DNA of 64,000 bases. It comes from a virus. Taxonomy: Duplodnaviria > Caudoviricetes. The stretch lies in IMG/VR virus record IMGVR_UViG_3300046694_000619, one strand, 5' to 3'. The notes under the pieces are model-generated. The model was not told the origin of the DNA, ran no database searches, and worked only from the letters and a program-made list of their open reading frames with translations. Below are positions 5,119 to 59,620 of the stretch, piece by piece. The position numbers and the translations under genes were made by a program. Numbering within the stretch: the stretch's first letter is position 1; every line of letters starts with the position of its first letter.

Positions 5119-5136
5119 TTCCGGAGGAACAGCACT

Positions 5137-5874: not shown

Positions 5875-6024
5875 CCGTTGCTTCGCGTAAGAGGCGCAAA
5901 TGTGCCCCTTGTCGTCGAAAAACGGACACAAGCGCCCAAATGTGCCACTTATGCGCCAGGCATCAAGTCGGCCGGAGCCGCAAAAAAAGCCCTGCAAGAT
6001 GCAGGGCTCATGAGTTGCGGTAAA

Positions 6025-7023
6025 TCAGACCTCGAAGGCGGCGCGCAACAGGACGCGTTTGCGCTCCTTCTCGGCAGCGTATTTCCTGTCCTCTTCAGGG
6101 TCCGAAAAGTTCAGCCCATCAAGCATCTCCAGAACGGCCGCGCTTCCTTCAGCCTTTCGTAGCGCCTTCTCCTCGTCGGAGAGTGCTTCGAATGCCGCCA
6201 TTTGCGCGAGGTGTTCCTGAAACTGCGCTGGTGTTGCGACAGGAGGTGCTACCTCGACGGCGACCTTAAGGAACGGGTTTTCAGTTGTAACGACCCGCTC
6301 GTAAAGCACCTCGGGCACCTGCAGCTGAGGAAACGCCGCGTTCAGGTCCTGTACCACCTTGTGGGTGTTGAGGAACTCGGCGATACCCAGGAAGTGGGCG
6401 TACACCGCGCCAACGAGCGAATACGAAGCTCTGCGCCCGTAGTTCTTCTCTTCGCAGATGACGTAGGGCAGTGCGATGCGTCCGGGAAAATCCGCGGACC
6501 GCGCGCCCTGCACATTGACACCCTTGAAAAGTTCCTGGTCCGGCCGCGGGTCATACTCGTCCTGCCCGTCGAAGGCCTTGTAACCGATTTCCATCTCGGC
6601 CCAGCCAAGGGGTCGAGCGGACGAAAGGTCTGGGTACTGCCGGTCGCAAAGTCTGAGCTCCAGATTTCTCACACGGGTTTCGAAGTCCCAGCGCGTCCCG
6701 TTAAGCGACCTGCCGACGTCACTCAAGTCACGTGCCTCGCCGGAGATGCTGTCGAGGAGCGTGTACAGCGCGTCGTACAGGTCGGCGTAAATCATCGGGC
6801 CATATGTCTGGCGCAACAACGTTTTGCGCTCCTTCTTCAGGGCATGCGCGGCTTCCCACAGCGAATGTGACTCGAACCAGCTGCGCGCAGCCTTCATCGC
6901 CGCAACGCGGATTTCCGTGAAAAGGGCATCCAGGTTAGCGATGGGCGTCCACTTCTGGCCAATGAAATCGGCCAGAAGGGTCACTTCTTCGTCGAGATTG
7001 ATGTCTGCAGTCAGGGTCTTCAT
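6025..7023 (-). CDS. hypothetical protein
   Basis: 332-aa ORF, GAGG RBS, CTATAC 34 nt upstream. Confidence 0.7.
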   Translation of the reverse strand: MKTLTADINLDEEVTLLADFIGQKWTPIANLDALFTEIRVAAMKAARSWFESHSLWEAAHALKKERKTLLRQTYGPMIYADLYDALYTLLDSISGEARDLSDVGRSLNGTRWDFETRVRNLELRLCDRQYPDLSSARPLGWAEMEIGYKAFDGQDEYDPRPDQELFKGVNVQGARSADFPGRIALPYVICEEKNYGRRASYSLVGAVYAHFLGIAEFLNTHKVVQDLNAAFPQLQVPEVLYERVVTTENPFLKVAVEVAPPVATPAQFQEHLAQMAAFEALSDEEKALRKAEGSAAVLEMLDGLNFSDPEEDRKYAAEKERKRVLLRAAFEV

Positions 7024-7112
7024 GGTTTGGCCTCAGGATGTAGATTAAACACATCCCGTATAGGACGGCCGCGGCCTGGCCTGCCTGAGCCTGCTTCGAG
7101 GATGATGCCTCG

Positions 7113-7859
7113 CTACTCGGGCATTGTATCCGCGCGGGCGATTACACCCTGGCAACCGGGGATTGTATGCAGGTTTCCCAGCCCAATCCAGCTGAAGGCC
7201 TTGTCCGGATGTTTGGATTCGAGCAGCCGCACATTCGCCGTCGGACCCACGGGCCCGTGGAAAAGCTCCGTGATGACGGCGGGCGCCGGCGCCAGGTCTT
7301 CGCGACCGCGGTAGATGACATTCACTCGCTGGTCGACGCTGAAGCCACCCAAGGTGCGAAAAAGCGGCGTGCCATTCGGATGGTGGCCGACAATCTCCGG
7401 TCCGGGTACGAGGCGGCGAAGGAATGCACCCAGCTGCTGGCGCTGGTAACCAATGCCGCCGGACGTTTCCAACACATTCACGGTGCTTGCAAGTCGCCCA
7501 CGCTCGAGCTGGCGCTGTACCGCGGCGCGCATCACGCGCCGATATTCCAGCCCACCCGCGAGGAGCACCTTACTCGCGCCAGGGGGAATCGGGCCATGCA
7601 TGAATGCGTCGAGCTTCGCGAGCATCTCGTTGGCGCGCTCGGGCGTCAGGCGTTGCTCATAGGGCTCGATGACTGCATTGCCCGGAATGAACCCATGCTG
7701 CGCCGAAAGAATGACGACATGAGGACGCGCCTCGCGCTTCACATTCGCGCGAAAGGTGCTGTACATGACGCCCTGGTACAGGTCGAGGGCGGGCGCAGCG
7801 TGCGCCTGCTTGGTCGCCGAACACGCCATGATGACGACAGCCGAAGAGTCTCGTTCCAT
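7113..7859 (-). CDS. DUF6884-like protein with C-terminal extension
   Basis: ACSATK...ALDLYQG...ILSAQHGFI...IEPYEQRL...GIGYQ pattern. Confidence 0.75.
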   Translation of the reverse strand: MERDSSAVVIMACSATKQAHAAPALDLYQGVMYSTFRANVKREARPHVVILSAQHGFIPGNAVIEPYEQRLTPERANEMLAKLDAFMHGPIPPGASKVLLAGGLEYRRVMRAAVQRQLERGRLASTVNVLETSGGIGYQRQQLGAFLRRLVPGPEIVGHHPNGTPLFRTLGGFSVDQRVNVIYRGREDLAPAPAVITELFHGPVGPTANVRLLESKHPDKAFSWIGLGNLHTIPGCQGVIARADTMPE

Positions 7860-7892
7860 GTGCGAAGTATGAGTTTGGACTTGGATTGCCGG

Positions 7893-8501
7893 CTACGCGT
7901 GCGTGAGCCGGAACGTGAGGTTGATGCGCGGCCGCGCGCCGGGCTGCTTGGTAATCCCGTGGCGCCACTCTTCCTGAGTCGCACCCTTCATCACGAGAAG
8001 CGAGCCGCCGCGCAAGTCGTACGCCAGCTTCGTCCTGGTCGCCATGTGCTCCATGTCAAACGCACGCCCGGCACCCAGGGAAACCGACGCGATGACAGGA
8101 TGCTTGCCGAGCTGGGTTTCCTTATCCGCATGCATGCCGATAGAGTCGTTTCCGTCACGGTAGTAGTTCATCAGGACACTGTTGAATCGGGCGGCCAGTC
8201 CCTGGCCAGCCAGAACACGCTCGACCTTTTCCTGGAGTGCGCGCAGCTCCTGTGGCATCGGACAGGCAGGGTGATAGAGGCCCGAATAGCGGTAATCGAC
8301 CTCGCCGAACCACGCGAGCAGGCGCGGAATCTGAACCTGGCGTTCCTGCCAGAAGAGGGACTTCTGCTGCCAGTCAATCTGGTCGCGGCAGAAGTCGAAC
8401 AGCGACTGGTGTTCGTCCGGTGACAGGAACTCGGGCAACCACAGCACATCCGGTCGAGGCAGCGCCAGCTCAGGGAAAAGGGAATCCATGTGAAGCTCCA
8501 T
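7893..8501 (-). CDS. alkB: AlkB-family 2OG-Fe(II) dioxygenase
   Basis: NYYRDGNDSIGMHADKE (HxD), IASVSLG, WRHGI, RINLTFR. Confidence 0.92.
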   Translation of the reverse strand: MELHMDSLFPELALPRPDVLWLPEFLSPDEHQSLFDFCRDQIDWQQKSLFWQERQVQIPRLLAWFGEVDYRYSGLYHPACPMPQELRALQEKVERVLAGQGLAARFNSVLMNYYRDGNDSIGMHADKETQLGKHPVIASVSLGAGRAFDMEHMATRTKLAYDLRGGSLLVMKGATQEEWRHGITKQPGARPRINLTFRLTHA

Positions 8502-48113: not shown

Positions 48114-48617
48114 CAACGCAAAGTCTGTCGGGCCGAACAATAAAGTCTGTCGCGGCAACGCACGCGGAATGTTCTCGTTGCTTTCGCTGAACCTGGCGTG
48201 CAGCATGAATTTTTCGACGGAGGATGTCATGCGCACATCGGAGCGCAATGCTCGCGACGAAAACATAGAGGCCCTGGCAGGCGCTCTTTTTCATGTTCTG
48301 GCTACCAACCCAATGGGATGCCGCTGGACCGAAATTCCAGAGGCAATTGGTCTGCTGCTCAAGCTCTTTGGCACCACGCTCATCACGATTACAGATGCCA
48401 ATAACGAGGAGGCGGAGAACATCTTGAACGACATGAATTCCCGCTTCGACAAGGGCTACAAAAGACCTACATCCATCTTTTTCACGAAGTAACCACGCCG
48501 GGACTTGAGCGCGGATGAGCCGACGGCCACATATTCTGTGGCACGCCAGCAACAGCCACGCTCAAGTCCCGACAGACTTTATTGTTCGAGGCCCGACAGA
48601 CTTAATTGTTTGAATCA
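48114..48617. mobile_element. possible non-autonomous Tn7-like mini-element or remnant
   Basis: Two AAAGTCTGTCG sites at 48114-48154 and two inverted copies at 48568-48611, resembling the Tn7 TnsB site core ACAATAAAGTCT; no TSD found. Confidence 0.45.
48229..48492 (+). CDS. hypothetical protein
   Basis: GGAGG RBS; 87 aa; lower GC than neighbours. Confidence 0.6.
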   Translation: MRTSERNARDENIEALAGALFHVLATNPMGCRWTEIPEAIGLLLKLFGTTLITITDANNEEAENILNDMNSRFDKGYKRPTSIFFTK

Positions 48618-50636
48618 CGGTGCAAGTGCGTCGACAGGCACAGAGCTGCTGTTGAGCGTTCCATCGCCGAGTGCGCCTGTCGTGTTATCACCCCAGCACT
48701 TCAAGCCAGTGCCCAGCTGCGCGCAGCTGAAGTAATACCCGTCCAGCACGCGCGTCACGCCTGCGCCCAGGCCGATGACCGTCGAAGGCAATGACACGTT
48801 CGTGCGTGTGTTGTTGCCAATTTGGCCCCAGTTGTTATAGCCCCAGCACAAGGCCGCAGAATTTGCCGTGGCGCAGGCGTGGATGTTTCCCGCGCTCACG
48901 CTCGTGACGCCGGCGCCCAGGCCAGTGACCGCAACGGGCACGTTGCTGTTGGTCAGGCTGCCGTTACCCAGTTGACCGGCGCTATTCAGCCCCCAGCAAT
49001 AGAGTCCGCTGTTGACAATCGCGCAAGTAAAGTTGGCGCCAAGCGCAAAGCCCGTGACGCCCGACGTCATTCCGGTCACCTGAACAGGAACGCCGCTTTG
49101 CACGGTATTGCCGTTGCCCAGCTGCCCAGACGTGCCGGCTCCCCAACATTTCAGCCCGCCCGAGACCAGGGCGCAGGTGTGATACCACGTTCCCGCAACC
49201 CGGGTCACGCCGGAGGTGAGTCCGATAACCTGAACCGGCACGGAGCTATCGGTCAGCGTGTTGTTGCCCAACTGATAGTTCCCGTTAAGGCCCCAGCATT
49301 TCGCGCTGCCAGATACCGTTGCGCACGTATGGTAGTACCCGGCCGACAGCGTCGACACACCGCTCGCCAGTCCGCTCACCAACGTCAGGACGCCGCTGCT
49401 CGCCGTCGAATTGTTGCCCAGCTGGCCGTAGCCGTTGTATCCCCAACAGTACGCGCCCCCGTTAATCTGTGCGCACGTGTGATAGTAGCCGGCCGTGATG
49501 CTTGTCACAGGCCCTGGCAGCCCGACAACGTTGACCGGGACGAGACTGTCCGTCGTGGTTCCATTGCCAAGCTGGCCATAACCGTTAGAGCCCCAGCACT
49601 GCAGACTGCCCGACGGAGTGACGACGCAGGTGTGGTGGCCGCCGGTCGCAACCTGCACCGCCTGAATGGGCGCGCCGTTAACCGTGAGCGTGTAGACCTG
49701 CTGACCTGTTTTGGCCCGGTAGCTGGCCACGACCTGGAACGACGACCCTGCATCGTTGCGCGCGGTCGGCGTGCCGCTGAGCAGCCCATCGGCCGACACG
49801 CTCAAGCCCGCGGGCAGCCCGGTTGCGGTGAAGCTTGCCTTGCTCGCGTCAAACGAATCGTCGCCGCTCACGCTGAGCTGTGTCTTGAAGTCGTAGGGCG
49901 TGTAGGCGGTGTTCGCGCGCGCCGCGGGCAGCGTTGCCGTCGCGAGGCTCACCGCAATATCGAGCGTCACCACCTGATAGGTTTGCTGCCCATTGAAGCC
50001 GCGGTACGTCGCGCGGGCGGTTACTGAGCCGGAACCCGAGGTCACCGGTGTGCCGCCAATCCAGCCATCGCTGGTGAGATACAGCCCCGAGGGCAGCGTG
50101 CTCGACACCACAGACCACGTGACACCTGTGCCGTTGTATGAGGCATCGCCGGTAACCGACAGAAGCGAGCGCAGGTCATAGCTGTAGGCTTCCCCCACGA
50201 TGGCCTGGGGCGGCGCGCCGGCCGAGAGTGCGACCGTGATGCTGGCTACGTAAATCTGGTATCCCTGCTGACCCGCTTTGGTTTTGTACGAGGCCATCAC
50301 CTGGAAGCTCGATGTGCCCCCGGCCGTCGGTGTGCCGCTGACCGTACCATCGCTGTTGAGTGTGAGCCCCGCAGGCAGGCTGCCGGAGGTCAGACTCCAG
50401 CGCACGCCATAGCCGGTGTACGCAGCGTCGCCGGTGACCGCGAGCAGGCTTTTCAGGTTAGCGCCCGCGTACGGCTGACCGACAAGCCCACTGGGTAGGG
50501 CGCTGGCGCTGAGAGAAACTCCGATATTGCTTGTCGTTGTGCGATTGGGGACTGGCACCACGACAAAGTAGGAACTGGCGAGCGAGCCTAGGCTAGTCAG
50601 CGCGAGTGTCGCGGCCAGCAATGAGTGTTTAAGCAT
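48615..50636 (-). CDS. secreted putative-Ig-repeat protein with RCC1-like beta-propeller
   Basis: SLA|SSYFVVVPVPNRT; three LP[AS]GL repeats; seven AGxxHTCA...CWGxNxxGQLG repeats. Confidence 0.9.
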   Translation of the reverse strand: MLKHSLLAATLALTSLGSLASSYFVVVPVPNRTTTSNIGVSLSASALPSGLVGQPYAGANLKSLLAVTGDAAYTGYGVRWSLTSGSLPAGLTLNSDGTVSGTPTAGGTSSFQVMASYKTKAGQQGYQIYVASITVALSAGAPPQAIVGEAYSYDLRSLLSVTGDASYNGTGVTWSVVSSTLPSGLYLTSDGWIGGTPVTSGSGSVTARATYRGFNGQQTYQVVTLDIAVSLATATLPAARANTAYTPYDFKTQLSVSGDDSFDASKASFTATGLPAGLSVSADGLLSGTPTARNDAGSSFQVVASYRAKTGQQVYTLTVNGAPIQAVQVATGGHHTCVVTPSGSLQCWGSNGYGQLGNGTTTDSLVPVNVVGLPGPVTSITAGYYHTCAQINGGAYCWGYNGYGQLGNNSTASSGVLTLVSGLASGVSTLSAGYYHTCATVSGSAKCWGLNGNYQLGNNTLTDSSVPVQVIGLTSGVTRVAGTWYHTCALVSGGLKCWGAGTSGQLGNGNTVQSGVPVQVTGMTSGVTGFALGANFTCAIVNSGLYCWGLNSAGQLGNGSLTNSNVPVAVTGLGAGVTSVSAGNIHACATANSAALCWGYNNWGQIGNNTRTNVSLPSTVIGLGAGVTRVLDGYYFSCAQLGTGLKCWGDNTTGALGDGTLNSSSVPVDALAP

Positions 50637-51620: not shown

Positions 51621-51755
51621 CTAGCCAAGAGAGGACACGTCGCCAGGCGCTTCCTCTTTCACCGTTTCGCACCGTTCGCATCGAACGAGGCTGTCGTACC
51701 CGCTGCCGTAGCGTTCCCAGACGTGCTCGCAAAAGAGTCGTTTGAGCCAGTTCAT
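51621..51755 (-). CDS. small Cys/His protein (DUF1660-like)
   Basis: MNWLKRLFCEHVW...CERC; ATGA overlap with the NadM-like gene. Confidence 0.55.
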   Translation of the reverse strand: MNWLKRLFCEHVWERYGSGYDSLVRCERCETVKEEAPGDVSSLG

Positions 51756-52354
51756 GCGGGCGAAGTCTCCAGCGCACGCTGCGTATAATCGTCCGCGAGG
51801 ACCTGATACCCGGGCGTCGACATCCACTGCTCGAGGAAGCCGAGCGCGCCGGCGGGAACCATTTCCTGCATTTCGGCAAGACGCGCCTCGAGCGGCCGGC
51901 GTTGGTCGAACATCACATTGCGCACGGTCGTGGCATCGAGGTCGTTCGCCCGCGGGACGCTCTCGAGCTGCCAGTCCGGGAAGAAGTTGAGGTAGTAGCT
52001 CGAATCGTCCTTGAAGTGGCCGATAAGCGCGACGCGCCCCGCGCCTGGAACTGCCTGCGCTACAACATCCTGAACCTTCGCGACCCAGCTTTCGTTGTCA
52101 CCGAAGTCCGGCACCGGCGCAAACAGAACGCGGTTCACGGCATCGCCGGCGATACAGCTCGCAATCATGACCATGCGCTGGTCAGCGCACAGCGGATTCT
52201 TGAGGCTGCTTGGCGCGCCGTCCGAGCCGAGCACCATGACGACCCACTTTCCCAGGGCGAGCGCCTGCAGCACGAGCGCGTCGTGGCCATTGTGATAAGG
52301 CTCGAAGCGGCCGATATAAACGACCACGTCATACGGATAGTTTTTCTCTTGCAT
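51752..52354 (-). CDS. NadM-type NMN adenylyltransferase domain (no Nudix domain)
   Basis: YIGRFEPYHNGH (HxGH), LGS, KNPL, GHFKDDSSYYLNFFPDW, DATTVR. Confidence 0.85.
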   Translation of the reverse strand: MQEKNYPYDVVVYIGRFEPYHNGHDALVLQALALGKWVVMVLGSDGAPSSLKNPLCADQRMVMIASCIAGDAVNRVLFAPVPDFGDNESWVAKVQDVVAQAVPGAGRVALIGHFKDDSSYYLNFFPDWQLESVPRANDLDATTVRNVMFDQRRPLEARLAEMQEMVPAGALGFLEQWMSTPGYQVLADDYTQRALETSPA

Positions 52355-52355
52355 A

Positions 52356-53006
52356 TCAACCCTGTGCGGCAACGCGCGCGAGCGCCTGCGTGAATCGCGG
52401 CAAGGCGAGCGCCGTGCCGTAGAGGTACGACTGGCCTTTGAAATGCCGCAAGCCGTAGGAGCCGACCTCGAGACCGGCGACGACCAGGTCCGTCTGCGCT
52501 GCGCCGCATTCTTCCCGGTCGATGCGCATCCCGATAGGACCTTCCGCATAGAGCGCCACCGCACGGAACATCATCTCCTGCGCGGCCATCAGCTCATCGA
52601 GGCGCGTCCGCCATCCGGACACATCGGTGCGCTCGAGCGACACATACCACTCAGCCTTCATGAAGCCGTGCTGATGAGTCTCGTCGAGCACCGACTCGTC
52701 ACGAAGGCAGGGCGTCCAGCCGATGAATCCCGGCGCGCCGCCAGCCAAAAGGCCCTGTTCGCGCAACATCAGGAAACTCTGTTCGCCCGAGCCCACGAAT
52801 GAACCGTGCGGGGTGGAGATGTCCCGGCAGAATGCAGGTCGGTGCGCAGCGGCGTACCCACCCGGAACCATCCACGGCAGGTCGACATACATGAAGCCTT
52901 GCGTCTGCCACCACTGGATGGCCAGATGCAGAAGCAGGAGGCTGTTCGGGGGAAAGGGGCCCGTTACGGCGGGCGCACGTGGTTCAGTTCGAAGTACGAC
53001 GGCCAT
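52356..53006 (-). CDS. minimal class II aminoacyl-tRNA-synthetase-like catalytic domain
   Basis: Motif 1 GFMYVDLPW, motif 2 CLRDE...HQHGFMKAEWY, LEVGSYG, motif 3 GTALALPRF; no anticodon-binding domain. Confidence 0.72.
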   Translation of the reverse strand: MAVVLRTEPRAPAVTGPFPPNSLLLLHLAIQWWQTQGFMYVDLPWMVPGGYAAAHRPAFCRDISTPHGSFVGSGEQSFLMLREQGLLAGGAPGFIGWTPCLRDESVLDETHQHGFMKAEWYVSLERTDVSGWRTRLDELMAAQEMMFRAVALYAEGPIGMRIDREECGAAQTDLVVAGLEVGSYGLRHFKGQSYLYGTALALPRFTQALARVAAQG

Positions 53007-53280
53007 TGACGAATGCTCGCTGGGTGATGTTGGAGAACGTGAGAAGGTCTTGCATCGTCAGGCCGGGCAGGTGGCGCTCCATGAACTTCTGGATGGCGCC
53101 CACCATGTCCGAAAGCTCGACGGCCGCCATCACGCGCGAGCCTTGCTCCATCGCGTCGCGCAACTCGTCGAGTTCTTCCTGAATCTTCGAGAGCTCGCCG
53201 AGCTCTCCCTTGGGGATTGCCACCAGGTGATAGCCGGGCTTCGCCACAGCGACTGCGGGCAGGGGTACGTGTGAGGTCAT
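52984..53280 (-). CDS. MazG-like all-alpha nucleotide pyrophosphohydrolase
   Basis: KIQEELDELRDA...VELSDMVGAI (EExxE...ExxD); alternative start 53301. Confidence 0.68.
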   Translation of the reverse strand: MTSHVPLPAVAVAKPGYHLVAIPKGELGELSKIQEELDELRDAMEQGSRVMAAVELSDMVGAIQKFMERHLPGLTMQDLLTFSNITQRAFVNGRRTSN

Positions 53281-53293
53281 GGGTTCAATCTCT

Positions 53294-53740
53294 TCAGTCA
53301 TCGGTTGGCACGTGCGATTCTTCAATGTCCTCGCGACTGCGGTCCTGCTGCCGACGAGCATTTGCGTATTCGTTGAGGTAACAGGCTTCCCGGACCGTGA
53401 GCGGGCGGCAGAGCTTTTGCACTTTGGCGAGGTAGCTGGCGACTTGCTCGTACCTCCGCGCGCCTTCGTCGATGCCACCTGTCCACGGCTGTAGTTCCAT
53501 CAGCGCGAGGTCATAGCGGTGAGTCACCCAGAAGGCACAGGCGAACACAGGGGCGCCCGCGAGTAGCACGAACCAGGGGTAGGTGCTTGCCTCATAGAGG
53601 AAGCCATAGGCAAGGCACAAGCCAACGGTCAGCGTCCAGAAAAACGTCAGCGCAAGCCGCGCCCGACCACGCAATGGAACGCGCTCGGCGTCCAGCTGCT
53701 CTGTTGCCGGCGGCGCGGCGCGAAGGTCGATGGACTTCAT
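53294..53740 (-). CDS. membrane protein (paralog of 53737..54213)
   Basis: IDL.A.PP....L.AER, two TM segments, VASYL, LT..EA. Confidence 0.68.
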   Translation of the reverse strand: MKSIDLRAAPPATEQLDAERVPLRGRARLALTFFWTLTVGLCLAYGFLYEASTYPWFVLLAGAPVFACAFWVTHRYDLALMELQPWTGGIDEGARRYEQVASYLAKVQKLCRPLTVREACYLNEYANARRQQDRSREDIEESHVPTDD

Positions 53741-54213
53741 GCGGCAGGCTTCTCGACGCCTGTACCATGAACCGCCCGCCAGGCCTCGACCGCGCGCTCG
53801 TGGTCGACGAGCTCAATGGTCTTGCGGGCATACCGCCGGATTTCGCCCGCTTCCAGTCGTGTCAGTTCTCGCCCTTGGTGCTGAAGCGCGCCAAGGTAAC
53901 TCGCTACCACCGGCTCCCGCTTCGCTGTCTCGAGCGGCAGACACTGGAGCGGCGTCACCGGAGACAGCAGCTCCCGCTCAAACGAAAACCGCATGAGGAA
54001 TACGGCGACAGCCCCCAACGACAAGGCGAAACCGAACCCGGCAAGGCCGCCGCCCATGAACGAATCTCGCGTGAGCCAGACCACAGGCACCATGCCCACT
54101 ACGAGAGGGATAAGGCGCAGCAGCCACCGGCGCTGAAGCACAGCGATGTGCTGGCGCTCTGCCTCGAGCACGTCCTGTGTAGGTGGCGTCGCAGTCAGGT
54201 CAATCTTCAGCAT
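53737..54213 (-). CDS. membrane protein
   Basis: Same motifs as the downstream paralog. Confidence 0.68.
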   Translation of the reverse strand: MLKIDLTATPPTQDVLEAERQHIAVLQRRWLLRLIPLVVGMVPVVWLTRDSFMGGGLAGFGFALSLGAVAVFLMRFSFERELLSPVTPLQCLPLETAKREPVVASYLGALQHQGRELTRLEAGEIRRYARKTIELVDHERAVEAWRAVHGTGVEKPAA

Positions 54214-54222
54214 GCCGCCCCC

Positions 54223-54747
54223 TTACGCCGGCTCGCGCTTCGCAGGCGCATCTTCACCGAAGAGCGCGTGGTACCGCTCGGGCGTAAACTGGTCGCTGTC
54301 AAAGTACCAGCGCTTGGCCGAGTCAATGCTGACCGGACGTGTGCTCGCGAAGCGCCGGCATCCGGCATCGAGGCAGGGCTTGGCCACATCGAAGATGCCT
54401 TCGGTTTCCGTCTCCAGGTCCGATTCGTAGCTGAACACGAACCAACGGCCGCTTTTGGTGACCGCCAGGCCGGGTTGGCTCATCCACGTGTTGAAGCGGT
54501 CGTGAAGATACGGCTTGCCGACAGCGATGATGGTCGAGTCGGCGCCCCTGAAAACGAGCGTCGGAGCGGGCTTGCCGTTAAAGGGGGGCGGCTCTTCGAA
54601 TTCGAGTTTGCTGAAATCCTTCGGTAGCGCGACATCCATGGCGTGGGTGACGTCAGCTTTCAGCATGTCCTGCGTGGGGCCGCCACATCCCGTGAGGGCC
54701 GCGGCTAGCGCGCCGGCAAGCGCCAGTGTCTTGAGAAATTTTTGCAT
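54223..54747 (-). CDS. putative lipoprotein
   Basis: Lipobox LTG-C after a signal peptide. Confidence 0.7.
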   Translation of the reverse strand: MQKFLKTLALAGALAAALTGCGGPTQDMLKADVTHAMDVALPKDFSKLEFEEPPPFNGKPAPTLVFRGADSTIIAVGKPYLHDRFNTWMSQPGLAVTKSGRWFVFSYESDLETETEGIFDVAKPCLDAGCRRFASTRPVSIDSAKRWYFDSDQFTPERYHALFGEDAPAKREPA

Positions 54748-54768
54748 TGAAAACGAATCCCTTTGAAC

Positions 54769-55104
54769 TCAGCTGTGCGCCGGCGTGCGGCTCGCTATCA
54801 CAAGTGCTGCGAGTACTGTGATGAAAATCGCCTTGCGAAGGGCGAAGATGAGTGCGATACCGACGACGAGTGCCATCAGTACATTGCCGTCGGCCAGGAG
54901 CCGGCCATTGGATGTGACTTCGGCTGCCAGCGTCAGATGCGTCCATTGCGCAAGCATCGCGATGCACGCCCAGACGCCAATCAGCGCGACAGTCATCACG
55001 CCGCGATGGAAAGCGGGCGGCGTGATAGCGCCGTTTTGTTGGCCCGCGACGTAAGCAACACGTGCCTCGCGCGCCGGAGAGAAAAAGCGCTTCAGTCTGT
55101 TCAT
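54769..55104 (-). CDS. membrane protein
   Basis: GAGGA RBS; three TM segments; ATGA overlap. Confidence 0.6.
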   Translation of the reverse strand: MNRLKRFFSPAREARVAYVAGQQNGAITPPAFHRGVMTVALIGVWACIAMLAQWTHLTLAAEVTSNGRLLADGNVLMALVVGIALIFALRKAIFITVLAALVIASRTPAHS

Positions 55105-55604
55105 GCTGGGAGTTCCTCGGTGACCCACGCAAACGGCTGCGGTGTCAGTGTCTTGGGCAAATAAAGCGGATGCCCTGGATGCCCGTCTTTCGTCAGGCGC
55201 AGGTAGCGCATTTCCGGGATGAGCTGCTTCACCCGTGAGTCGCGCTCCATGTGGGTGCCGTGCACACCCCACGCAGCCACGACAAGGCCCGCGCGCCGCG
55301 CGAGTCGCTCAAGCCAGACATCGTTTTCTGGTCCTACCGGGTCATTGGCCGCGAGCATGGCTGCGGGGTCCGTTGAGCGGAAGGCAAAGAGATTGACCAT
55401 GCACACGCCGCTATATCCCCAGGCCTTCGCGAACGCGATGCATCGGCGGATAGTCGGGTCATCGTTATTTTCGTCTGCCGTGCTCGGGTTGAGCCCGATA
55501 AACAGGACGTATCCGCGGTCGACAGCGCCAGCCTGCGCGCCCCATGCGCGCCAGAGCGCGTAACGGTAGAGCCGACAGGGCGAGAAGTGGGCGCTTCGGT
55601 CCAT
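55101..55604 (-). CDS. DUF1643 family protein
   Basis: YRYALWR, FIGLNPSTAD...DPTIRRC, NLFAFRSTDP, VAAWG, HPLY. Confidence 0.9.
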   Translation of the reverse strand: MDRSAHFSPCRLYRYALWRAWGAQAGAVDRGYVLFIGLNPSTADENNDDPTIRRCIAFAKAWGYSGVCMVNLFAFRSTDPAAMLAANDPVGPENDVWLERLARRAGLVVAAWGVHGTHMERDSRVKQLIPEMRYLRLTKDGHPGHPLYLPKTLTPQPFAWVTEELPA

Positions 55605-55621
55605 GGCAAAGTCTCCAGTTG

Positions 55622-56050
55622 TCAGAGTGCTACGCCGCGCAACTCGTACCACGAGTCTTCCGGGCCGGCCTCATTGCATTCATCCGAGAAGTCATACTCG
55701 ATGCTCACGCCCAGGCCCTGTTCGCGAGCCCAAGCCGTAAATTCGAGCCAGACGTCGTGATTTGCATGCGTTGCTGCGTCGATTCGCTTGCCGTTGTCGT
55801 AGATGCCGAGGAGTTGCTGGATATGCCCCGCGCGGTCCGCGCGCCGCAGCTCAATGGGGATAAACCGGCCCGAATTACGTATCGAGCTTTCAATTCGCAC
55901 CTTGTACGATTCAAAGAGTGCAACCGTCTCATCGCGCCGAGCGGCTCGATGAACTGCGGCTTGCCTCTGCTCGCGCTGAACCCGCGCCGCCGCGGCAGCG
56001 GGTTCAGCCGCGGCGGTTTGCTTGAGGATAGTTCCCAGATTCGTAGTCAT
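55622..56050 (-). CDS. hypothetical protein (paralog of 19141..19581)
   Basis: NLG..LK, VWLEF..W...GL, SWYEL. Confidence 0.65.
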   Translation of the reverse strand: MTTNLGTILKQTAAAEPAAAAARVQREQRQAAVHRAARRDETVALFESYKVRIESSIRNSGRFIPIELRRADRAGHIQQLLGIYDNGKRIDAATHANHDVWLEFTAWAREQGLGVSIEYDFSDECNEAGPEDSWYELRGVAL

Positions 56051-56091
56051 ATCTGCCCTTTTTTTGAGGTTGAGTGGCCGGTGGTGCGCGC

Positions 56092-57189
56092 TCAGGCGGC
56101 TGCCGGCAGGTCGTAGTTGACTGCGCCTCGGGCGAACCGTTGACGCGAGAACTGGACCACGACTTCCGGGTCATGGGTCGCAAACACGAAACGACCCTCG
56201 TCGATGTTCACTTCCTTGAGCAGGTTGATGTCCAAGGTGTAGGACTCGGGTTCGCTCAGCCCATCTGCGGGAACCTCACCTTCATCGAATCCGTAGAAGG
56301 TCACTTCCATGCCGTTCAGGCTGAGCGGGCTCCGGTTTACCTCGTTGTGGCTCTGGCCATCACACAAAATGGGCGCGCCGTTGCGCAGCCCCTTGATGTT
56401 GTACTGGCCACCTTCGTCGTTCTGCGGACGCATGTTCAGCATCTGCATCGCGTCGGTTGCATTCTCGTTGTAGCGGTTCATTTCCTCGACGAGCGCCTGC
56501 AGCATGTCGAACGTGAACTCGGTGAAGAACGCCGCGACGTTCAAAACGCCGCTCAGGTTCGACTTGTTTTCCAGATTGTCGACGCAGTATTCCTCGACGA
56601 AAGCGCGCGGCAGGCCTGCGAAGTCCAGCGAGTAGAACAGGCGGCCTGGTCGGTTAATCATGTGCTTGTCGATGCGGCTGCGGTCGTTGACCGTCAGCAG
56701 GAACAACTTCTTCGACGGATACAGGCCGTCGAGCAGCGTCAGCAGGTGCGGCTGTTTTTCATGGTCGTACACCTTTTCGAATTCGTCGAAGAGGATGATG
56801 GCCGACTGCGACATGCCGCCGATGAAGGCGTTAAATTCGTCGCCACAGAAGGGTTCATTGACCACCAGTGTCGGGATGTCCAGTTCCTGCCCGAGCTGCG
56901 AGACGCGCTTGGTCAGCATCGTCTTGCCTGCGCCCTTGTGGCCCGAAAGCAGCACGCCAGTGCCCGACGGACGGCAGCCGAACGTGTTCAGGATGCGGTG
57001 CGCACGGCTGTTTACGTCGCCGTAGAGCTTCGCCGGCAGCTTGAAGTCTTCGATGCGCTCCAGATAGAAACCAATCAGCGCGCCATGGCGCACTGCGTAC
57101 GTGCCCGGCGGCAGGACCGGCTCGACGGCGAGCGCTTCAGTGCTGGTCGGAAAGTATTCGTTGCCGTCACGGCGGTAGACACGGGTCAT
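56092..57189 (-). CDS. AAA-family ATPase (phage-type, BCS1-like)
   Basis: Walker A GHKGAGKT, Walker B ILFDEFEK, LLDG, NRPGR. Confidence 0.9.
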   Translation of the reverse strand: MTRVYRRDGNEYFPTSTEALAVEPVLPPGTYAVRHGALIGFYLERIEDFKLPAKLYGDVNSRAHRILNTFGCRPSGTGVLLSGHKGAGKTMLTKRVSQLGQELDIPTLVVNEPFCGDEFNAFIGGMSQSAIILFDEFEKVYDHEKQPHLLTLLDGLYPSKKLFLLTVNDRSRIDKHMINRPGRLFYSLDFAGLPRAFVEEYCVDNLENKSNLSGVLNVAAFFTEFTFDMLQALVEEMNRYNENATDAMQMLNMRPQNDEGGQYNIKGLRNGAPILCDGQSHNEVNRSPLSLNGMEVTFYGFDEGEVPADGLSEPESYTLDINLLKEVNIDEGRFVFATHDPEVVVQFSRQRFARGAVNYDLPAAA

Positions 57190-57222
57190 GCGATTCCCTG
57201 TAGCGTTCAAGTGATGATTTGA

Positions 57223-57385: not shown

Positions 57386-59620
57386 ATGACCAACACTATC
57401 CAAAATACGTCGCTGGGCAAGCAAATGCTGTCCCAATCCAAGTTCTTCATGGGCTATTCCCGCTGGGTCGAAGGCAAAGGCGCCTACGAAACCTGGGCAG
57501 AATCCGTGGAACGTGTGATGTCGATGCACCGCGGCAAGTACGCTGACCGCATGACGCCGGAGCTCGAGGCCTTCATGGCCAAGGCTCAGGCGGCGTACGA
57601 CTCGCAGCTCGTTCTGGGCGCGCAACGCGCGCTGCAGTTCGGCGGAGAGCAGCTGCTGCGCCACGAAGCAAAGATGTACAACTGCTCGGTGTCGCACGCG
57701 GACCGCGCGGCTTTCTTCCAGGAAGCCATGTATCTGCTGTTGTGCGGCTGCGGTGTCGGCTTCTCGGTCCAGGAACGTCACGTTTCGAAGCTCCCGCGCA
57801 TTCAGGCGCGTTCGGCTGACAGCGCGAAGGTGTTCCAGGTGCCCGATAGCATCGAAGGCTGGGCTGACGCGTTCGGCGTGCTGTTGTCCTCGTACTTCGT
57901 GGACGGCGGTACGTTCCCGGAATTCAAGGGCACTCCGGTCCTCTTCGACTTCTCGAAGATTCGTCCGAAGGGCTCGCTGATTTCGGGCGGCTTCAAGGCG
58001 CCGGGCGCGGATGGTCTGCGCAATGCGCTCGTGAAATGCGAAACGCTCATCGAGCGTGCGCTGGCCGAAGGTCGCGACAACATGCGCGCTATCGTGGTCT
58101 ACGACTTCGTGATGCACATGTCGGATGCTGTTCTGTCGGGTGGTGTGCGCCGTTCGGCCACCATCTGCCTGTTCGACAAGTTCGATGACGAGATGCTGAA
58201 GGCGAAGACGGGTAACTGGTTCGTCGACAATCCGCAGCGCGGCCGTAGCAACAACTCGGTGGTGCTGAAGAAAGACGAACTGACCCGCGAAGAATGGGCC
58301 GCCATCATGCGCTCTGTGCGTGATTTCGGCGAACCCGGTTTCATCTTCGTGGACGACTTCGACTTCGCGTACAACCCATGCGTTGAAATCGGCATGCGTC
58401 CGATTTGCGTCGAAACCGGCGAGTCGGGTTTCCAGTTCTGCAATCTGACCGAGGGCAACGGCGCCAAGTGCACAACGAAGGAAATCTTCTTCGCGATGTG
58501 CGAGGCGAGCGCCATTCTCGGTACGCTGCAGGCTGGGTACACCAACTTCAAGTACCTGAGCGACGCCACGCGCCGCATCACGGAACGCGAGGCACTCATC
58601 GGCGTGTCCATCACGGGCTGGATGAACAATCCGCATATCCTGTTCGACGAAGAAATCCTGAAACAAGGGGCCGAAATCGTCAAGCGGGTGAACCGTGAAG
58701 TCGCCAAGCTGATTGGTACCCGTCCGGCCGCTCGTACGACCTGCGCCAAACCTTCGGGCAATGCGTCGGTTCTGCTGCAGACCGAGTCGGGTATCCACGG
58801 CGCGCACTCGGCGTTGTACTTCCGCAACGTGCAGATGAACGTCGAAGATGAAGTGGCCAAGCTGATTCAGGCCCTCAACCCGAAAATGGTTGAGAAGAGC
58901 GTCTGGAGCAGCAACGGCACCGACATCGTCGTGAGCTTCCCGGTCTTCACGAAGGAAGGTTCGATTTGCAAGGCGGACCTGATGGGCGTGAAGCAGCTGG
59001 AATACGTGAAGAAGGCGCAGCAGTTCTGGGTCGAAAACGGCACCAACGTCGAGCTGTGCGTGCATCCGAAGTTGCGCCACAACATCTCGAACACCATTTC
59101 GGTGGACGACTGGGATGAAGTGGAGCAGTACATCTTCGATAACCGCGAATGGTTCGCTGGCATTTCGCTGCTGTCGGCTTTTGGCGACAAGGCGTATGCA
59201 CAGGCTCCGTTCACGGAAGTGCAGACCGCAGAGGACATCCTGCGCCTGTACGGTGATGCCAGCATGTTTGCATCGGGACTGATTGTCGACGGCCTGGCCG
59301 CCTTCAACGGAAACCTGTGGATGGCCTGCGACACGGCAATGGGCAACGGCCAGGTGCTGTCGGACGAAGCAACCGACCTGCTCAAGCGTGACTGGGTTCG
59401 TCGATTCGCAAAGTTCGCGGAAAACTTCTTCGGTGGTGACGAGCTGAAGACGTCCTTCTGTGTGAAGGATTGCTACAACCTGCACAAGTGGGTAAGCATC
59501 CAGAAGACCATGAAGGAAATCGACTTCTCGGAAGCGCTGGCAAAGCGCGACTATGTCGATGTCGATACGCTCGCCTCGCAAGGTTGCGCTGGCGGTGCGT
59601 GCGAAATCAGCTTTGCGTGA
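57386..59620 (+). CDS. nrdJ: class II (B12-dependent) monomeric ribonucleotide reductase
   Basis: YNCS, GGVRRSA, NPCVEI, CNLTE, KPSG, C-terminal CAGGAC; no nrdB nearby. Confidence 0.88.
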   Translation: MTNTIQNTSLGKQMLSQSKFFMGYSRWVEGKGAYETWAESVERVMSMHRGKYADRMTPELEAFMAKAQAAYDSQLVLGAQRALQFGGEQLLRHEAKMYNCSVSHADRAAFFQEAMYLLLCGCGVGFSVQERHVSKLPRIQARSADSAKVFQVPDSIEGWADAFGVLLSSYFVDGGTFPEFKGTPVLFDFSKIRPKGSLISGGFKAPGADGLRNALVKCETLIERALAEGRDNMRAIVVYDFVMHMSDAVLSGGVRRSATICLFDKFDDEMLKAKTGNWFVDNPQRGRSNNSVVLKKDELTREEWAAIMRSVRDFGEPGFIFVDDFDFAYNPCVEIGMRPICVETGESGFQFCNLTEGNGAKCTTKEIFFAMCEASAILGTLQAGYTNFKYLSDATRRITEREALIGVSITGWMNNPHILFDEEILKQGAEIVKRVNREVAKLIGTRPAARTTCAKPSGNASVLLQTESGIHGAHSALYFRNVQMNVEDEVAKLIQALNPKMVEKSVWSSNGTDIVVSFPVFTKEGSICKADLMGVKQLEYVKKAQQFWVENGTNVELCVHPKLRHNISNTISVDDWDEVEQYIFDNREWFAGISLLSAFGDKAYAQAPFTEVQTAEDILRLYGDASMFASGLIVDGLAAFNGNLWMACDTAMGNGQVLSDEATDLLKRDWVRRFAKFAENFFGGDELKTSFCVKDCYNLHKWVSIQKTMKEIDFSEALAKRDYVDVDTLASQGCAGGACEISFA

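What the first reader, a model, noticed from the sequence alone, without database searches (positions are those of the whole stretch)
51752..53301. MazG-like / minimal class II aaRS-like / Nudix-less NadM trio: candidate new NAD or nucleotide pathway
Seen in sequence: three tightly coupled genes (23-bp overlap, 1-bp gap). They encode a ~98-aa all-alpha NTP-pyrophosphatase-like protein, a 216-aa class II synthetase catalytic core with motifs 1-3 and no tRNA-binding domain, and an HxGH NadM-type adenylyltransferase that ends where the Nudix domain of NadM-Nudix would begin. Established: stand-alone class IIb paralogs (AsnA, EpmA) adenylate a carboxylate and transfer it to ammonia or a protein amine, and mobile elements carry NAD-rebuilding pathways that counter NAD-depleting defences. 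Inference: the aaRS-like enzyme could amidate NaMN/NaAD in place of NadE, ligate an amino acid to a nucleotide or protein, or make Ap4N. The MazG-like protein could stand in for the missing Nudix. I know of no described pathway with this combination.
Basis: partly seen in the sequence, partly recalled or inferred. Interest (0 to 1): 0.8.

Follow-up and report, generated by a model that had tools for sequence, protein, structure and literature searches.

The report
Mini-SerRS/MazG phage pair beside NMNAT
The three coupled genes are real, but only the first two (a stripped-down seryl-tRNA-synthetase core and a small HisE/MazG-like pyrophosphatase) form a conserved, sometimes fused and still unstudied module of large phages. 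The NAD enzyme next to them is a local neighbour, not part of a new NAD pathway.

Summary
Observation confirmed. On the minus strand lie A (52984-53301, 105 aa), B (52356-53006, 216 aa) and C (51752-52354, 200 aa), with a 23-nt A/B overlap and a 1-nt B/C gap. A fourth 44-aa CxH..CxxC gene overlaps the end of C by 4 nt.

- **B** is a confident class II core (pLDDT 93.8). It derives from SerRS (class IIa), not from AsnA/EpmA, and keeps the motif 2/3 arginines and the SerRS serine-pocket motifs.
- **A** is HisE/MazG-like, with an invariant KxxEExxE...ExxD signature.
- **C** is the NMNAT domain of NadM with no Nudix domain.

The trio is not a unit. In 101 loci fetched through B, A sits beside B in about 97, and A and B are fused in both orders. 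An NMNAT lies within 6 kb in only 2. In sister lineages of this element the NMNAT is about 2 kb away behind 3-5 other genes, or is missing. Other jumbo phages keep NMNAT-Nudix next to Nampt, 60-130 kb from A-B.

The most frequent neighbours of A-B are ribonucleotide reductase and nucleotide kinases. I found no publication on the pair. This scan has noted the same pair before in at least 53 other genomes. The function of A-B is open; the NAD-pathway reading is unlikely (about 0.07).

The parts
52984..53301 (-). Gene A: small HisE/MazG-like all-alpha NTP pyrophosphohydrolase-type protein (105 aa; alternative start 53280 gives 98 aa); PHROG 6408
   Evidence: phrog_6408 E 1.6e-36. Pfam PRA-PH is below threshold, E 0.0066. 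There are 23 invariant residues, including K39, E42, E43, E46, E62 and D65. The AF2 core has pLDDT 96-98. The best Foldseek hits are HisE/PRA-PH structures, rmsd 1.2-2.0 A. hhalign puts the motifs in the same register as a Sphingobium HisE.
52356..53006 (-). Gene B: minimal (216 aa) SerRS-derived class II aminoacyl-tRNA-synthetase catalytic core with no tRNA-binding arm; PHROG 4806 (labelled 'histidyl tRNA synthetase' there)
   Evidence: No Pfam or NCBIfam hit; phrog_4806 E 1.1e-25. AF2 pLDDT 93.8. Foldseek and VIA top hits are SerRS cores, Z 17-19, rmsd 2.7-3.0 A over about 195 residues. The family profile hits only SerRS in the PDB at E<=1e-3. SerRS motifs are conserved.
51752..52354 (-). 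Gene C: stand-alone NadM-type nicotinamide/nicotinate mononucleotide adenylyltransferase with no Nudix domain
   Evidence: NCBIfam NadM-Nudix models E 1e-38, covering only their N-terminal half; stand-alone model NF010365 E 1.6e-32. PDB 2qjo E 1.1e-28, chain residues 7-185 of 341. GRFxPxHxGH motif present. About 23 Nudix-less homologue clusters of about 200 aa, all on contigs of the same element clade.
51621..51755 (-). 44-aa CxH...CxxC mini zinc-finger-like ORF; its ATG overlaps the stop codon of C (ATGA)
   Evidence: It is called as a gene on identical metagenome contigs and in the Burkholderia ubonensis relative.
53294..57210 (-). Upstream part of the same tightly packed minus-strand gene string: AAA ATPase (56092-57210, phrog_2376), DUF1643 protein (55101-55652, phrog_3230), and small unknown or membrane proteins including two paralogues (53737-54213, 53294-53740)
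   Evidence: The same order is seen in relatives L105, L106 and L124.
57386..59620 (+). Ribonucleotide reductase, transcribed divergently from the gene string; the neighbourhood type that recurs around A-B in other phages
   Evidence: phrog_367 E 5.3e-85; GC3 frame choice.

Best explanation
The locus is a composite of two things.

**(1) The A-B module.** A and B are one self-contained, mostly viral two-enzyme module.
- B is a SerRS catalytic core stripped of its tRNA-binding arm and with a shortened motif 2 loop.
- Inferred from its retained SerRS residues: B binds ATP and L-serine (or a very similar small amino acid), makes the aminoacyl-adenylate, and passes the acyl group to an acceptor other than a canonically recognised tRNA.
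- A is a Mg-dependent HisE/MazG-type enzyme that cleaves the alpha-beta pyrophosphate bond of a nucleoside-triphosphate-type compound. That compound is either B's substrate or B's product.
- By analogy, HisE pulls the HisG reaction forward, and MazZ feeds PurZ in phages that make 2-aminoadenine DNA. The module would therefore act in phage nucleotide metabolism.

**(2) The NMNAT.** C is an ordinary stand-alone NadM-type NMN/NaMN adenylyltransferase that makes NAD(+) or NaAD from ATP and the mononucleotide. It came to abut B in this sub-lineage when the intervening genes were lost. It works independently of A-B.

**Shown:** gene structure, folds, motif conservation, A-B linkage and fusion, and non-linkage of C.
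**Inferred:** serine as the substrate, the nature of the acceptor, and the substrate of A.
For: **A-B linkage**
- A is adjacent to B in about 97 of 101 loci from 60 lineages at <60% B identity.
- Natural fusions exist as B-A (L012, L018, L019, L037, P0331, P0389, P0392) and as A-B (P0302).
- The B family has 1131 clusters at 50% identity with E<=1e-30, and 232 cultured phage records carry it.
- ESM Atlas clusters for both proteins are 87-99% viral.

**B is SerRS-like and looks active**
- VIA Z is 17-19 to SerRS, against 14.6 for AsnA and 13.4 for EpmA/GenX.
- The PDB profile search hits only SerRS at E<=1e-3.
- The same profile picks out the 410-420-aa SerRS genes in Saccharimonadia genomes.
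- S73/E75 (the TxE position), R102, E119, E180/S183, T198 and R204 are invariant or >=98% conserved across 82 members. They line up with the SerRS TxE, CFRxE, HQFxKVE, EISS and GSGLAxxR motifs.

**A**
- The invariant K..EE..E...E..D signature and the top HisE structural hits support the assignment.

**Nucleotide context**
- RNR is the commonest neighbour (6 of 60 lineages within 2.2 kb), followed by AAA_28 and dNMP kinases, dCMP deaminase and thymidylate synthase.
- In ESCO13 the string helicase-A-B-RNR has overlapping genes.
- KARL-1 places the pair in the nrdC/nrdH region.
- This window has an RNR about 4 kb upstream.

**C is independent**.
Against: - No biochemical data exist for any member, so the amino acid, the acceptor and A's substrate are all inferred.
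- A reaches neither Pfam's threshold (17.3 vs 21.3 bits) nor a significant structural E-value. Its profile finds no HisE/MazG in the PDB by sequence.
- In some lineages A-B lies in tRNA arrays or beside RNA ligase, not nucleotide genes. That fits an RNA-directed role equally well.
- Weak hints of an NAD/ADP-ribose link recur. The NMNAT stays within about 2 kb across this clade. NadM-Nudix lies 1.2 kb from A in L029. CPR genomes carry a wHTH-Nudix / AAA_28-kinase / A / B cassette.
- The B-C junction with its 1-nt gap is kept in the Burkholderia ubonensis relative at 75% B identity, so co-expression of C with A-B is real in this lineage.
Confidence: 0.6

Rival explanations
1. RNA-end reading. 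B still acts on tRNA or another RNA 3' end, either as a minimalist seryl-tRNA synthetase or as part of a tRNA repair or protection route. A removes a pyrophosphate or nucleotide block, or clears a nucleotide by-product. This would help the phage keep translation running against host tRNA-targeting defences.
For: - B keeps every SerRS catalytic motif.
- The pair sits inside phage tRNA gene arrays in CcrBL9, L035, L039, L041 and L066.
- RNA ligase genes are neighbours in 3 lineages and MetRS in 1.
- Earlier notes of this scan report YqeY/GatB-like and RlaP/RNA-ligase neighbours in other phages (not checked here).
Against: - B lacks the N-terminal coiled coil that SerRS needs to recognise tRNA-Ser (established knowledge).
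- Its motif 2 loop, which contacts the acceptor stem, is about 6 residues shorter.
- 43 of the 60 loci scanned have no tRNA gene within 6 kb, and this 64-kb window has none.
- An obligate, sometimes fused MazG/HisE-type partner has no role in ordinary aminoacylation.
Confidence: 0.2
2. First reader's reading. A, B and C form one new NAD pathway. B adenylates and amidates NaMN/NaAD in place of NadE (or ligates an amino acid to a pyridine nucleotide). C adenylylates the mononucleotide. A replaces the missing Nudix domain. Together they rebuild NAD against NAD-depleting defences.
For: - Tight coupling of the three genes here and in the B. ubonensis relative.
- The NMNAT stays within about 2 kb of A-B in most of this clade.
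- NadM-Nudix lies within 6 kb of A-B in L029 and L101.
- CPR cassettes pair A-B with a Nudix protein and an AAA_28 kinase, the Pfam family that also holds NadR's ribosylnicotinamide kinase domain (my knowledge).
Against: - An NMNAT lies within 6 kb in only 2 of 101 loci fetched through B.
- In sister lineages C is separated from B by 3-5 genes including an opposite-strand gene, and directly follows a GmrSD_N gene instead. It is absent in L106.
- ESCO13 and KARL-1 carry A-B with no NMNAT or Nampt. Three jumbo phages keep NMNAT-Nudix beside Nampt, 60-130 kb from A-B.
- B keeps the SerRS motifs that bind the alpha-amino group and side chain of serine. An enzyme acting on a nicotinate carboxylate would have no reason to keep them.
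- The AAA_28 kinases match no NadR model and score best, weakly, to dTMP and nucleotide kinases.
Confidence: 0.07
3. Dinucleotide-polyphosphate or alarmone reading. B uses its aminoacyl-adenylate to make Ap4A-type compounds, as several class II synthetases do, and A hydrolyses these or related signalling nucleotides. The pair would tune a nucleotide signal during infection.
For: Established knowledge: class II aaRS such as LysRS, PheRS and GlyRS make Ap4A, and MazG enzymes hydrolyse NTPs and (p)ppGpp. Intact ATP-site residues in B and metal-site residues in A. Nucleotide-metabolism neighbourhoods.
Against: Nothing specific points to it. Fusing a synthase to a hydrolase of the same product would be futile. 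The conservation of the serine-pocket residues is not explained.
Confidence: 0.06
4. Carrier-loading reading. As in the SerRS-like amino acid:[carrier protein] ligases, B loads an amino acid onto its small helical neighbour A, which would be an acceptor protein and not an enzyme.
For: - The aa:CP ligase Bll0957 (3mey) is a good structural match to B (Z 15.9).
- Those ligases are encoded next to carrier proteins of about 85 aa (my knowledge of Mocibob et al. 2010; not opened).
- A has an invariant Ser38 at the start of its first helix.
Against: - A has 23 invariant positions in about 85, including the K..EE..E...E..D metal-site pattern of HisE/MazG. That is far more than a carrier protein needs.
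- A has no PP-binding Pfam hit.
- A's best structural hits are HisE/MazG, and no ACP appears among the rows shown.
- B scores higher to bacterial and eukaryotic SerRS than to 3mey.
Confidence: 0.04

Closest known systems
Seryl-tRNA synthetase (bacterial/eukaryotic type, class IIa) catalytic domain
   Same: Same fold: VIA Z 17-19, rmsd 2.7-3.0 A over about 195 residues. Significant sequence-profile similarity to SerRS and to nothing else in the PDB at E<=1e-3. The TxE-type loop, motif 2 (P-C-x-R-x-E ... H-x-F-x-K-x-E), the E-x-x-S strand and motif 3 (G-T-A-L-A-x-P-R) are all conserved.
   Different: Only about 200 aa. It has no N-terminal coiled-coil tRNA arm, a shorter motif 2 loop, and no Pfam or NCBIfam SerRS hit. 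It is always paired or fused with a HisE/MazG-like protein. It is mostly viral and present in only 6 of 201 Saccharimonadia genomes, each of which also has a normal SerRS-sized match.
Stand-alone class II paralogs AsnA, EpmA/PoxA(GenX), HisZ and amino acid:[carrier protein] ligases
   Same: All are truncated class II cores without tRNA anticodon-binding function that use, or have lost, adenylate chemistry for non-translational jobs. Structural Z values are 13.4-17.1 (11as 14.6, 3a5y 13.4, 3od1 17.1, 3mey 15.9).
   Different: B is smaller than all of them. Its sequence signal is to SerRS only. Unlike HisZ it keeps the catalytic arginines. Its partner is a MazG/HisE-like protein, not HisG, EF-P or a carrier protein.
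HisE (phosphoribosyl-ATP pyrophosphohydrolase) / MazG all-alpha NTP pyrophosphohydrolases, including phage MazZ of the 2-aminoadenine pathway
   Same: A has the same helical core and the K..EE..E...E..D metal-binding pattern in the same register. Like MazZ with PurZ, it is a small NTP-PPase genetically tied to an ATP-dependent ligase in phage nucleotide-gene clusters (analogy from my knowledge).
   Different: A is below Pfam's threshold. It carries extra invariant N-terminal (P-G-Y-H) and C-terminal (T-x-R-A-F-x-x-G-x-R) motifs. Its substrate is unknown, and its partner is a class II aaRS core.
NadM / NatV-type NMN adenylyltransferase, and the phage Nampt + NMNAT(-Nudix) NAD salvage cassette (NARP2-type)
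   Same: C matches the NMNAT domain of NadM-Nudix (2qjo E 1e-28; NCBIfam E 1e-38) and has the HxGH motif. Related jumbo phages carry the standard Nampt + NMNAT-Nudix pair.
   Different: C lacks the Nudix domain, like the stand-alone family NF010365, although it scores below that model's cut-off (112.7 vs 198 bits). No Nampt gene is found in the 64-kb window.

Membership tests
Class II aaRS catalytic core | Antiparallel beta-sheet core fold with motifs 1-3 | tested here: met
   AF2 pLDDT 93.8. There are 500+ Foldseek hits at E<=1e-3, all those listed being class II aaRS. VIA Z reaches 19. The motif 1 Pro (P44) is conserved in 77 of 82 members.
Class II aaRS catalytic core | Motif 2 and motif 3 arginines of the ATP site | tested here: met
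   R102 is conserved in 82/82 members and R204 in 81/82. They sit in P-C-x-R-x-E and G-T-A-L-A-x-P-R, which match the SerRS motifs.
Seryl-tRNA synthetase (SerRS, TIGR00414 / PF00587+PF02403) | Serine-pocket motifs (TxE loop, Glu of FxKxE, ExxS, Thr/Ser of motif 3) | tested here: met
   S73 81/82, E75 82/82, E119 82/82, E180 80/82, S183 81/82, T198 82/82, aligned to SerRS. That these residues bind serine in SerRS is from my knowledge of the T. thermophilus structures.
Seryl-tRNA synthetase (SerRS, TIGR00414 / PF00587+PF02403) | N-terminal coiled-coil tRNA-binding arm and full-length architecture reaching the curated cut-offs | tested here: not met
   B is 216 aa, and the model aligns only to the catalytic domain (for example 1ser residues 141-398). 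No Pfam or NCBIfam family is reported even at E<=1. B is therefore not a SerRS, although its chemistry probably resembles SerRS step 1.
AsnA / EpmA (class IIb stand-alone paralogs) | Closest sequence and structural kinship to the AspRS/AsnRS/LysRS group | tested here: not met
   The profile search finds SerRS at 1e-6 to 1e-3 and AspRS only at E 0.83. VIA Z is 14.6 (AsnA) and 13.4 (GenX) against 17-19 for SerRS.
Amino acid:[carrier protein] ligase (Bll0957 type) | SerRS-like core plus an adjacent phosphopantetheinylated carrier protein as acceptor | tested here: inconclusive
   3mey gives Z 15.9. The neighbour A shows a HisE/MazG signature and no PP-binding hit, but acceptor function was not assayed.
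MazG/HisE all-alpha NTP pyrophosphohydrolase superfamily (protein A) | Acidic metal-binding motifs EExxE ... ExxD on a helical bundle | tested here: met
   E42, E43, E46, E62, D65 and K39 are invariant in 57 sequences, in the same register as a Sphingobium HisE. The helical model has core pLDDT 96-98.
MazG/HisE all-alpha NTP pyrophosphohydrolase superfamily (protein A) | Significant match to the family models or structures | tested here: inconclusive
   PF01503 scores 17.3 bits against a 21.3 cut-off. Foldseek top hits are HisE with probability 0.87-0.95 but E 0.5-1.5. VIA Z 6.4 to 1yvw lies among unrelated helical hits. The A profile finds no HisE in the PDB by sequence. hhalign gives E 0.041.
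NadM-type NMN adenylyltransferase (protein C) | Nucleotidyltransferase fold with (H/T)xGH motif and similarity to the NadM NMNAT domain | tested here: met
   PF01467 E 1.3e-8, above its cut-off. NadM models E 1e-38. 2qjo E 1.1e-28 with G-R-F-x-P-x-H-x-G-H aligned.
Bifunctional NadM-Nudix (PRK05379) | C-terminal Nudix ADP-ribose pyrophosphatase domain | tested here: not met
   C ends at residue 200. Its matches cover only about positions 4-200 of the 312-354-position models and score 87-133 bits against cut-offs of 354-449.
Phage NAD reconstitution cassette (Nampt + NMNAT, NARP2-type) | Nampt (PF04095) gene partnered with the NMNAT | tested here: inconclusive
   tblastn with a jumbo-phage Nampt finds nothing in the 64-kb window, and sister loci show no Nampt next to C. 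The rest of this genome is not available.

The most novel reading that the evidence does not exclude
The mini-SerRS core and its HisE/MazG partner are a single, virus-spread enzyme system. It ligates serine (or a similar amino acid) to a free nucleotide or nucleotide cofactor and then trims the triphosphate. The product would be an aminoacylated nucleotide that large phages, and a few CPR/DPANN cells, use for a modified DNA or RNA precursor, a signalling molecule or a cofactor. In this clade that product could feed into or draw on the neighbouring NMNAT reaction.
Probability: 0.1. Interest if true: 0.85.

Novelty: new variant of a known kind. Interest (0 to 1): 0.5.

Why it matters
A family of more than 1,100 sequence clusters (at 50% identity) combines an apparently active, 200-residue remnant of a core translation enzyme with an obligate pyrophosphatase partner. 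It is present in easily handled E. coli, Acinetobacter and Caulobacter phages, and I could find no published function for it.

Working it out would add a new stand-alone aaRS paralog function. It could also reveal a new nucleotide- or RNA-directed step in phage infection.

For annotation, three points follow:
- The database labels 'histidyl tRNA synthetase' and 'putative seryl-tRNA synthetase' are misleading.
- Gene callers truncate B.
- The adjacent NMNAT should not be read as evidence of a new NAD pathway.

Tried and rejected
- **Complex prediction of B with A**: no verdict (score 0.01). This counts neither for nor against binding.
- **Literature**: no paper describing the pair. The 2021 jumbo-phage overview mentions MazG-like enzymes only in general terms.
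- **PADLOC defence models** for A, B, C and seven neighbours: no hits.
- **Megablast of 24 kb** against plasmids and phages: only trivial short hits.
- **No whole genome is held for the window**, so genome-wide searches for Nampt, NadE and the like were impossible. tblastn with a phage Nampt found nothing in the window.
- **tRNA scan of the window:** none.
- **hhalign of the B family against a Sphingobium SerRS** misplaced the TxE region because of an insertion in that SerRS. I used motif positions and the PDB profile alignments instead.
- **A-family profile against PDB sequences:** no HisE/MazG hit.
- **VIA structural search for A:** dominated by generic helical hairpins.
- **Search for an obligate third partner.** I clustered all neighbours and ran Pfam tallies on 209 flanking ORFs from 60 lineages. 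No family exceeded about 10% of lineages.
- **Housekeeping gene of Saccharibacteria?** Rejected, because B is found in only 6 of 201 genomes sampled.


Full report
**1. What is in the sequence**

The minus strand of the window carries a tightly packed gene string. In order it reads:
- AAA ATPase (56092-57210; phrog_2376)
- a DUF1643 protein (55101-55652; phrog_3230)
- several small unknown proteins
- A (52984-53301)
- B (52356-53006)
- C (51752-52354)
- a 44-aa CxH..CxxC ORF (51621-51755)

A and B overlap by 23 nt, and B and C are separated by 1 nt. In addition, the start of A overlaps the upstream stop by 8 nt, and the 44-aa ORF overlaps the stop of C as ATGA.

The window is phage-like. It holds a ribonucleotide reductase (57386-59620, phrog_367), a nuclease (phrog_13933), an RNA ligase (phrog_548), a clamp loader and other PHROG families. 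It has no tRNA gene. No whole genome is held for it. Identical genes occur on JGI metagenome contigs, and close relatives occur in Burkholderia ubonensis assemblies and on contigs of 0.5-0.7 Mb.

**2. The three proteins**

C is plainly the NMN adenylyltransferase domain of NadM.
- NCBIfam NadM-Nudix models score E 1e-38 but only over their first half.
- The stand-alone model NF010365 scores E 1.6e-32.
- PDB 2qjo scores E 1.1e-28, with chain residues 7-185 of 341 aligned and the HxGH motif matched.
- The protein stops where the Nudix domain would begin.

B has no Pfam or NCBIfam hit but matches phrog_4806.
- An AlphaFold model built on 82 homologues has pLDDT 93.8. The folded representative differs from the window protein at one residue.
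- Foldseek and the exhaustive VIA search put SerRS catalytic domains on top: Z 17-19, rmsd 2.7-3.0 A over about 195 residues. HisRS/HisZ, PylRS and the aa:CP ligase 3mey (15.9) follow. AsnA (14.6) and EpmA/GenX (13.4) come clearly lower.
- A profile of the family finds only SerRS in the PDB at E<=1e-3 (best 1.2e-6). It aligns the SerRS TxE loop, P-C-F-R-x-E and H-Q-F-x-K-V-E with B's S-G-E, P-C-L-R-D-E and H-G-F-M-K-A-E.
- Against a Sphingobium SerRS fetched for the purpose, E-I-S-S corresponds to E-V-G-S, and N-G-S-G-L-A-V-G-R to Y-G-T-A-L-A-L-P-R.
- All these positions are invariant or at least 98% conserved in the family.

B is therefore a SerRS-derived class IIa core with an intact ATP site and an intact SerRS-type amino-acid site. 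It has no tRNA arm, and its motif 2 loop is shortened.

A matches phrog_6408 and, below threshold, Pfam PRA-PH.
- It is unusually conserved: 23 invariant positions in 57 diverse sequences, including K39, E42, E43, E46, E62 and D65.
- Its model is a three-helix unit with core pLDDT 96-98.
- The best Foldseek hits are HisE/PRA-PH structures (rmsd 1.2-2.0 A, 22-30% identity, probability up to 0.95) and MazG proteins, but the E-values are only 0.5-3.
- hhalign against a genuine HisE places the K..EE..E...E..D pattern in register.
- A sequence profile against the PDB and VIA are not decisive.

I accept A as a HisE/MazG-type enzyme with moderate confidence.

**3. Which genes belong together**

I fetched 101 loci through B: 21 from species-representative genomes (all but one of them MAGs) and 80 from IMG/VR. 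I scanned their six-frame ORFs with profiles of A and B and with C.
- A is next to B in about 97 loci. The usual order is A then B with a short overlap; sometimes it is B then A.
- Four loci encode B-A fusions with no linker (L012, L018, L019, L037).
- Among the top representatives of an exhaustive search there are three more B-A fusions and one A-B fusion.
- The B family has 1131 clusters at 50% identity with E<=1e-30.
- It occurs in 232 cultured phage records, including Phapecoctavirus, the CR3/CR9 group, Acinetobacter T4-like phages, phiCbK-like Caulobacter phages and Brevundimonas jumbo phages.
- It is 87-99% viral in ESM Atlas clusters.
- In Saccharimonadia it is sporadic, at 6 of 201 genomes. 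The same search picks up the normal SerRS genes of those genomes as weak hits.

By contrast, an NMNAT lies within 6 kb of B in only 2 of the 101 loci (L029 and L101, both NadM-Nudix).

The Nudix-less C family consists of about 23 clusters (56-91% identical to C), all on contigs of this element's own clade. Within that clade:
- the B. ubonensis relative keeps the 1-nt B/C junction;
- three more distant members have C about 2 kb downstream of B, behind 3-5 genes that include an opposite-strand L5_gp82-like gene, and directly after a GmrSD_N gene;
- another syntenic member lacks C altogether.

The abutment of B and C is therefore a derived deletion product.

Elsewhere the picture is the same.
- CcrPW, Kabachok and a complete 578-kb phage keep NMNAT-Nudix next to Nampt, 60-130 kb from their A-B pair.
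- ESCO13 and KARL-1 have A-B and neither NAD gene.
- No Nampt is found in this window.

**4. Context of the A-B pair**

No third gene is obligatory. Clustering of all neighbours and Pfam tallies of 209 flanking ORFs from 60 lineages give these counts:
- ribonucleotide reductase as the commonest neighbour (6 lineages);
- AAA_28 kinases (4), dNMP kinases (4) and Nudix (4);
- RNA ligase (3) and UDP-sugar dehydrogenase (3);
- dCMP deaminase (2) and inorganic pyrophosphatase (2);
- thymidylate synthase, 5-hmdU kinase and MetRS (1 each).

Further context:
- In ESCO13 the genes helicase-A-B-RNR overlap one another.
- In KARL-1 the pair lies in the nrdC/nrdH/endonuclease VII region.
- In a large syntenic clade the order is Dda helicase, dNMP kinase, MazG, A, B, RNR.
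- Here an RNR is divergently transcribed about 4 kb upstream.
- tRNA arrays surround the pair in five or six lineages.
- In CPR genomes the pair is chromosomal, between housekeeping genes. It sits in a cassette made of a divergent wHTH-Nudix gene and, in some, an overlapping AAA_28 kinase.

**5. Mechanism**

Shown: the A-B linkage and fusions, B's SerRS ancestry with conserved catalytic and pocket residues, A's metal-site signature, and the independence of C.

Inferred:
- B forms seryl- (or a similar small aminoacyl-) adenylate.
- Lacking the arm that SerRS needs for tRNA-Ser, it hands the acyl group to a different acceptor.
- A cleaves the alpha-beta bond of a triphosphate compound that enters or leaves B's reaction. 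This is the logic by which HisE follows HisG, and by which MazZ supplies PurZ.
- The nucleotide-gene neighbourhoods favour a nucleotide-type substrate.
- C makes NAD (or NaAD) on its own, as in other phage NAD salvage.

My confidence is high that A-B is the unit and C a bystander (about 0.85). It is about 0.3 for the specific chemistry. I give 0.6 overall.

**6. Rivals**

- An RNA or tRNA 3'-end role (0.2). tRNA arrays, RNA ligase neighbours and the intact SerRS site support it. The missing arm, the shortened loop and the obligate pyrophosphatase partner weaken it.
It keeps some weak hints: clade-level proximity of C, L029, and the CPR Nudix/kinase cassette. It fails the co-conservation test, and it does not explain why the alpha-amino-acid pocket is conserved.
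- Ap4A-type signalling (0.06).
- Carrier-protein loading (0.04).

**7. Comparison and novelty**

The closest known entities are the SerRS catalytic domain for B, HisE/MazG for A, and NadM for C. B fails SerRS membership on architecture and curated thresholds. It is not an AsnA/EpmA relative. The combination of a SerRS-type mini-core with a HisE/MazG partner appears in none of the papers I could search.

Earlier notes of this same scan describe the pair, with the same conclusion, in at least 53 other genomes. They also describe the MazG/aaRS/NMNAT/Zn-finger arrangement in one other genome. I treated these as leads and re-derived the points above independently.

**8. Verdict**

The interpretation as a three-gene NAD pathway is not supported beyond the correct domain calls. 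What remains is a widespread, experimentally tractable enzyme pair of unknown function, with an ordinary NMNAT parked beside it in this lineage.

Noticed in passing
window 51621-51755 (-): A 44-aa ORF with a CxH...CxxC pattern starts at an ATG overlapping the stop codon of the NMNAT gene (ATGA). It is also called as a gene in relatives (40-44 aa), so it is a fourth translationally coupled gene of unknown role.
   Followed up: partly
window 53294-53740 (-) and 53737-54213 (-): Two adjacent, overlapping genes just upstream of A encode paralogous proteins of about 150 aa. They share a similar N-terminus (M-x-x-I-D-L-x-A-x-P-P) followed by hydrophobic, probably membrane-spanning segments. They have no family match.
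   Followed up: no
window 48615-50636 (-): A 673-aa protein with a signal-peptide-like N-terminus, He_PIG/Ig-like repeats and RCC1/WD40_RLD repeats. It is conserved next to this gene string in relatives (L105, L124, L127).
   Followed up: no
L127, L128, L129 (about 7000-8400 in each) and L106 9454-10233: In sister lineages the Nudix-less NMNAT directly follows a GmrSD_N (DUF262) gene, not the aaRS-like gene. L106 has the GmrSD_N gene without the NMNAT. This may be a small variable conflict or competition islet inside these huge phage-like elements.
   Followed up: partly
L004, L008, L013, L017, L020 (about 4300-6600); L009, L013, L020 for the kinase: In Saccharibacteria and other CPR MAGs the A-B pair is chromosomal, between fusA and rpoC or next to dnaE. 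It sits in a cassette with a divergently transcribed wHTH(DUF7347)-Nudix protein and, in three loci, an overlapping AAA_28 P-loop kinase.
   Followed up: partly
L124/L125/L126 gene calls; phage records such as ESCO13, KARL-1, ESCO5: Annotation problems. JGI calls B from an internal ATG (178 aa), which removes a conserved helix. PHROG-based annotation names the family 'histidyl tRNA synthetase', and some records say 'putative seryl-tRNA synthetase'. CcrColossus labels it an RNA polymerase alpha CTD protein.
   Followed up: partly
L016 7053-9869 (+): The ribonucleotide reductase large-subunit gene next to the A-B pair in a Saprospiraceae MAG carries an intein with a LAGLIDADG homing endonuclease.
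   Followed up: no
L053 12067-12142 (+): ARAGORN calls a tRNA with a CUA anticodon (reported as tRNA-Pyl, an amber suppressor type) about 5.5 kb from the A-B pair on a 243-kb viral contig. It may be a sign of stop-codon reassignment in that phage.
   Followed up: no
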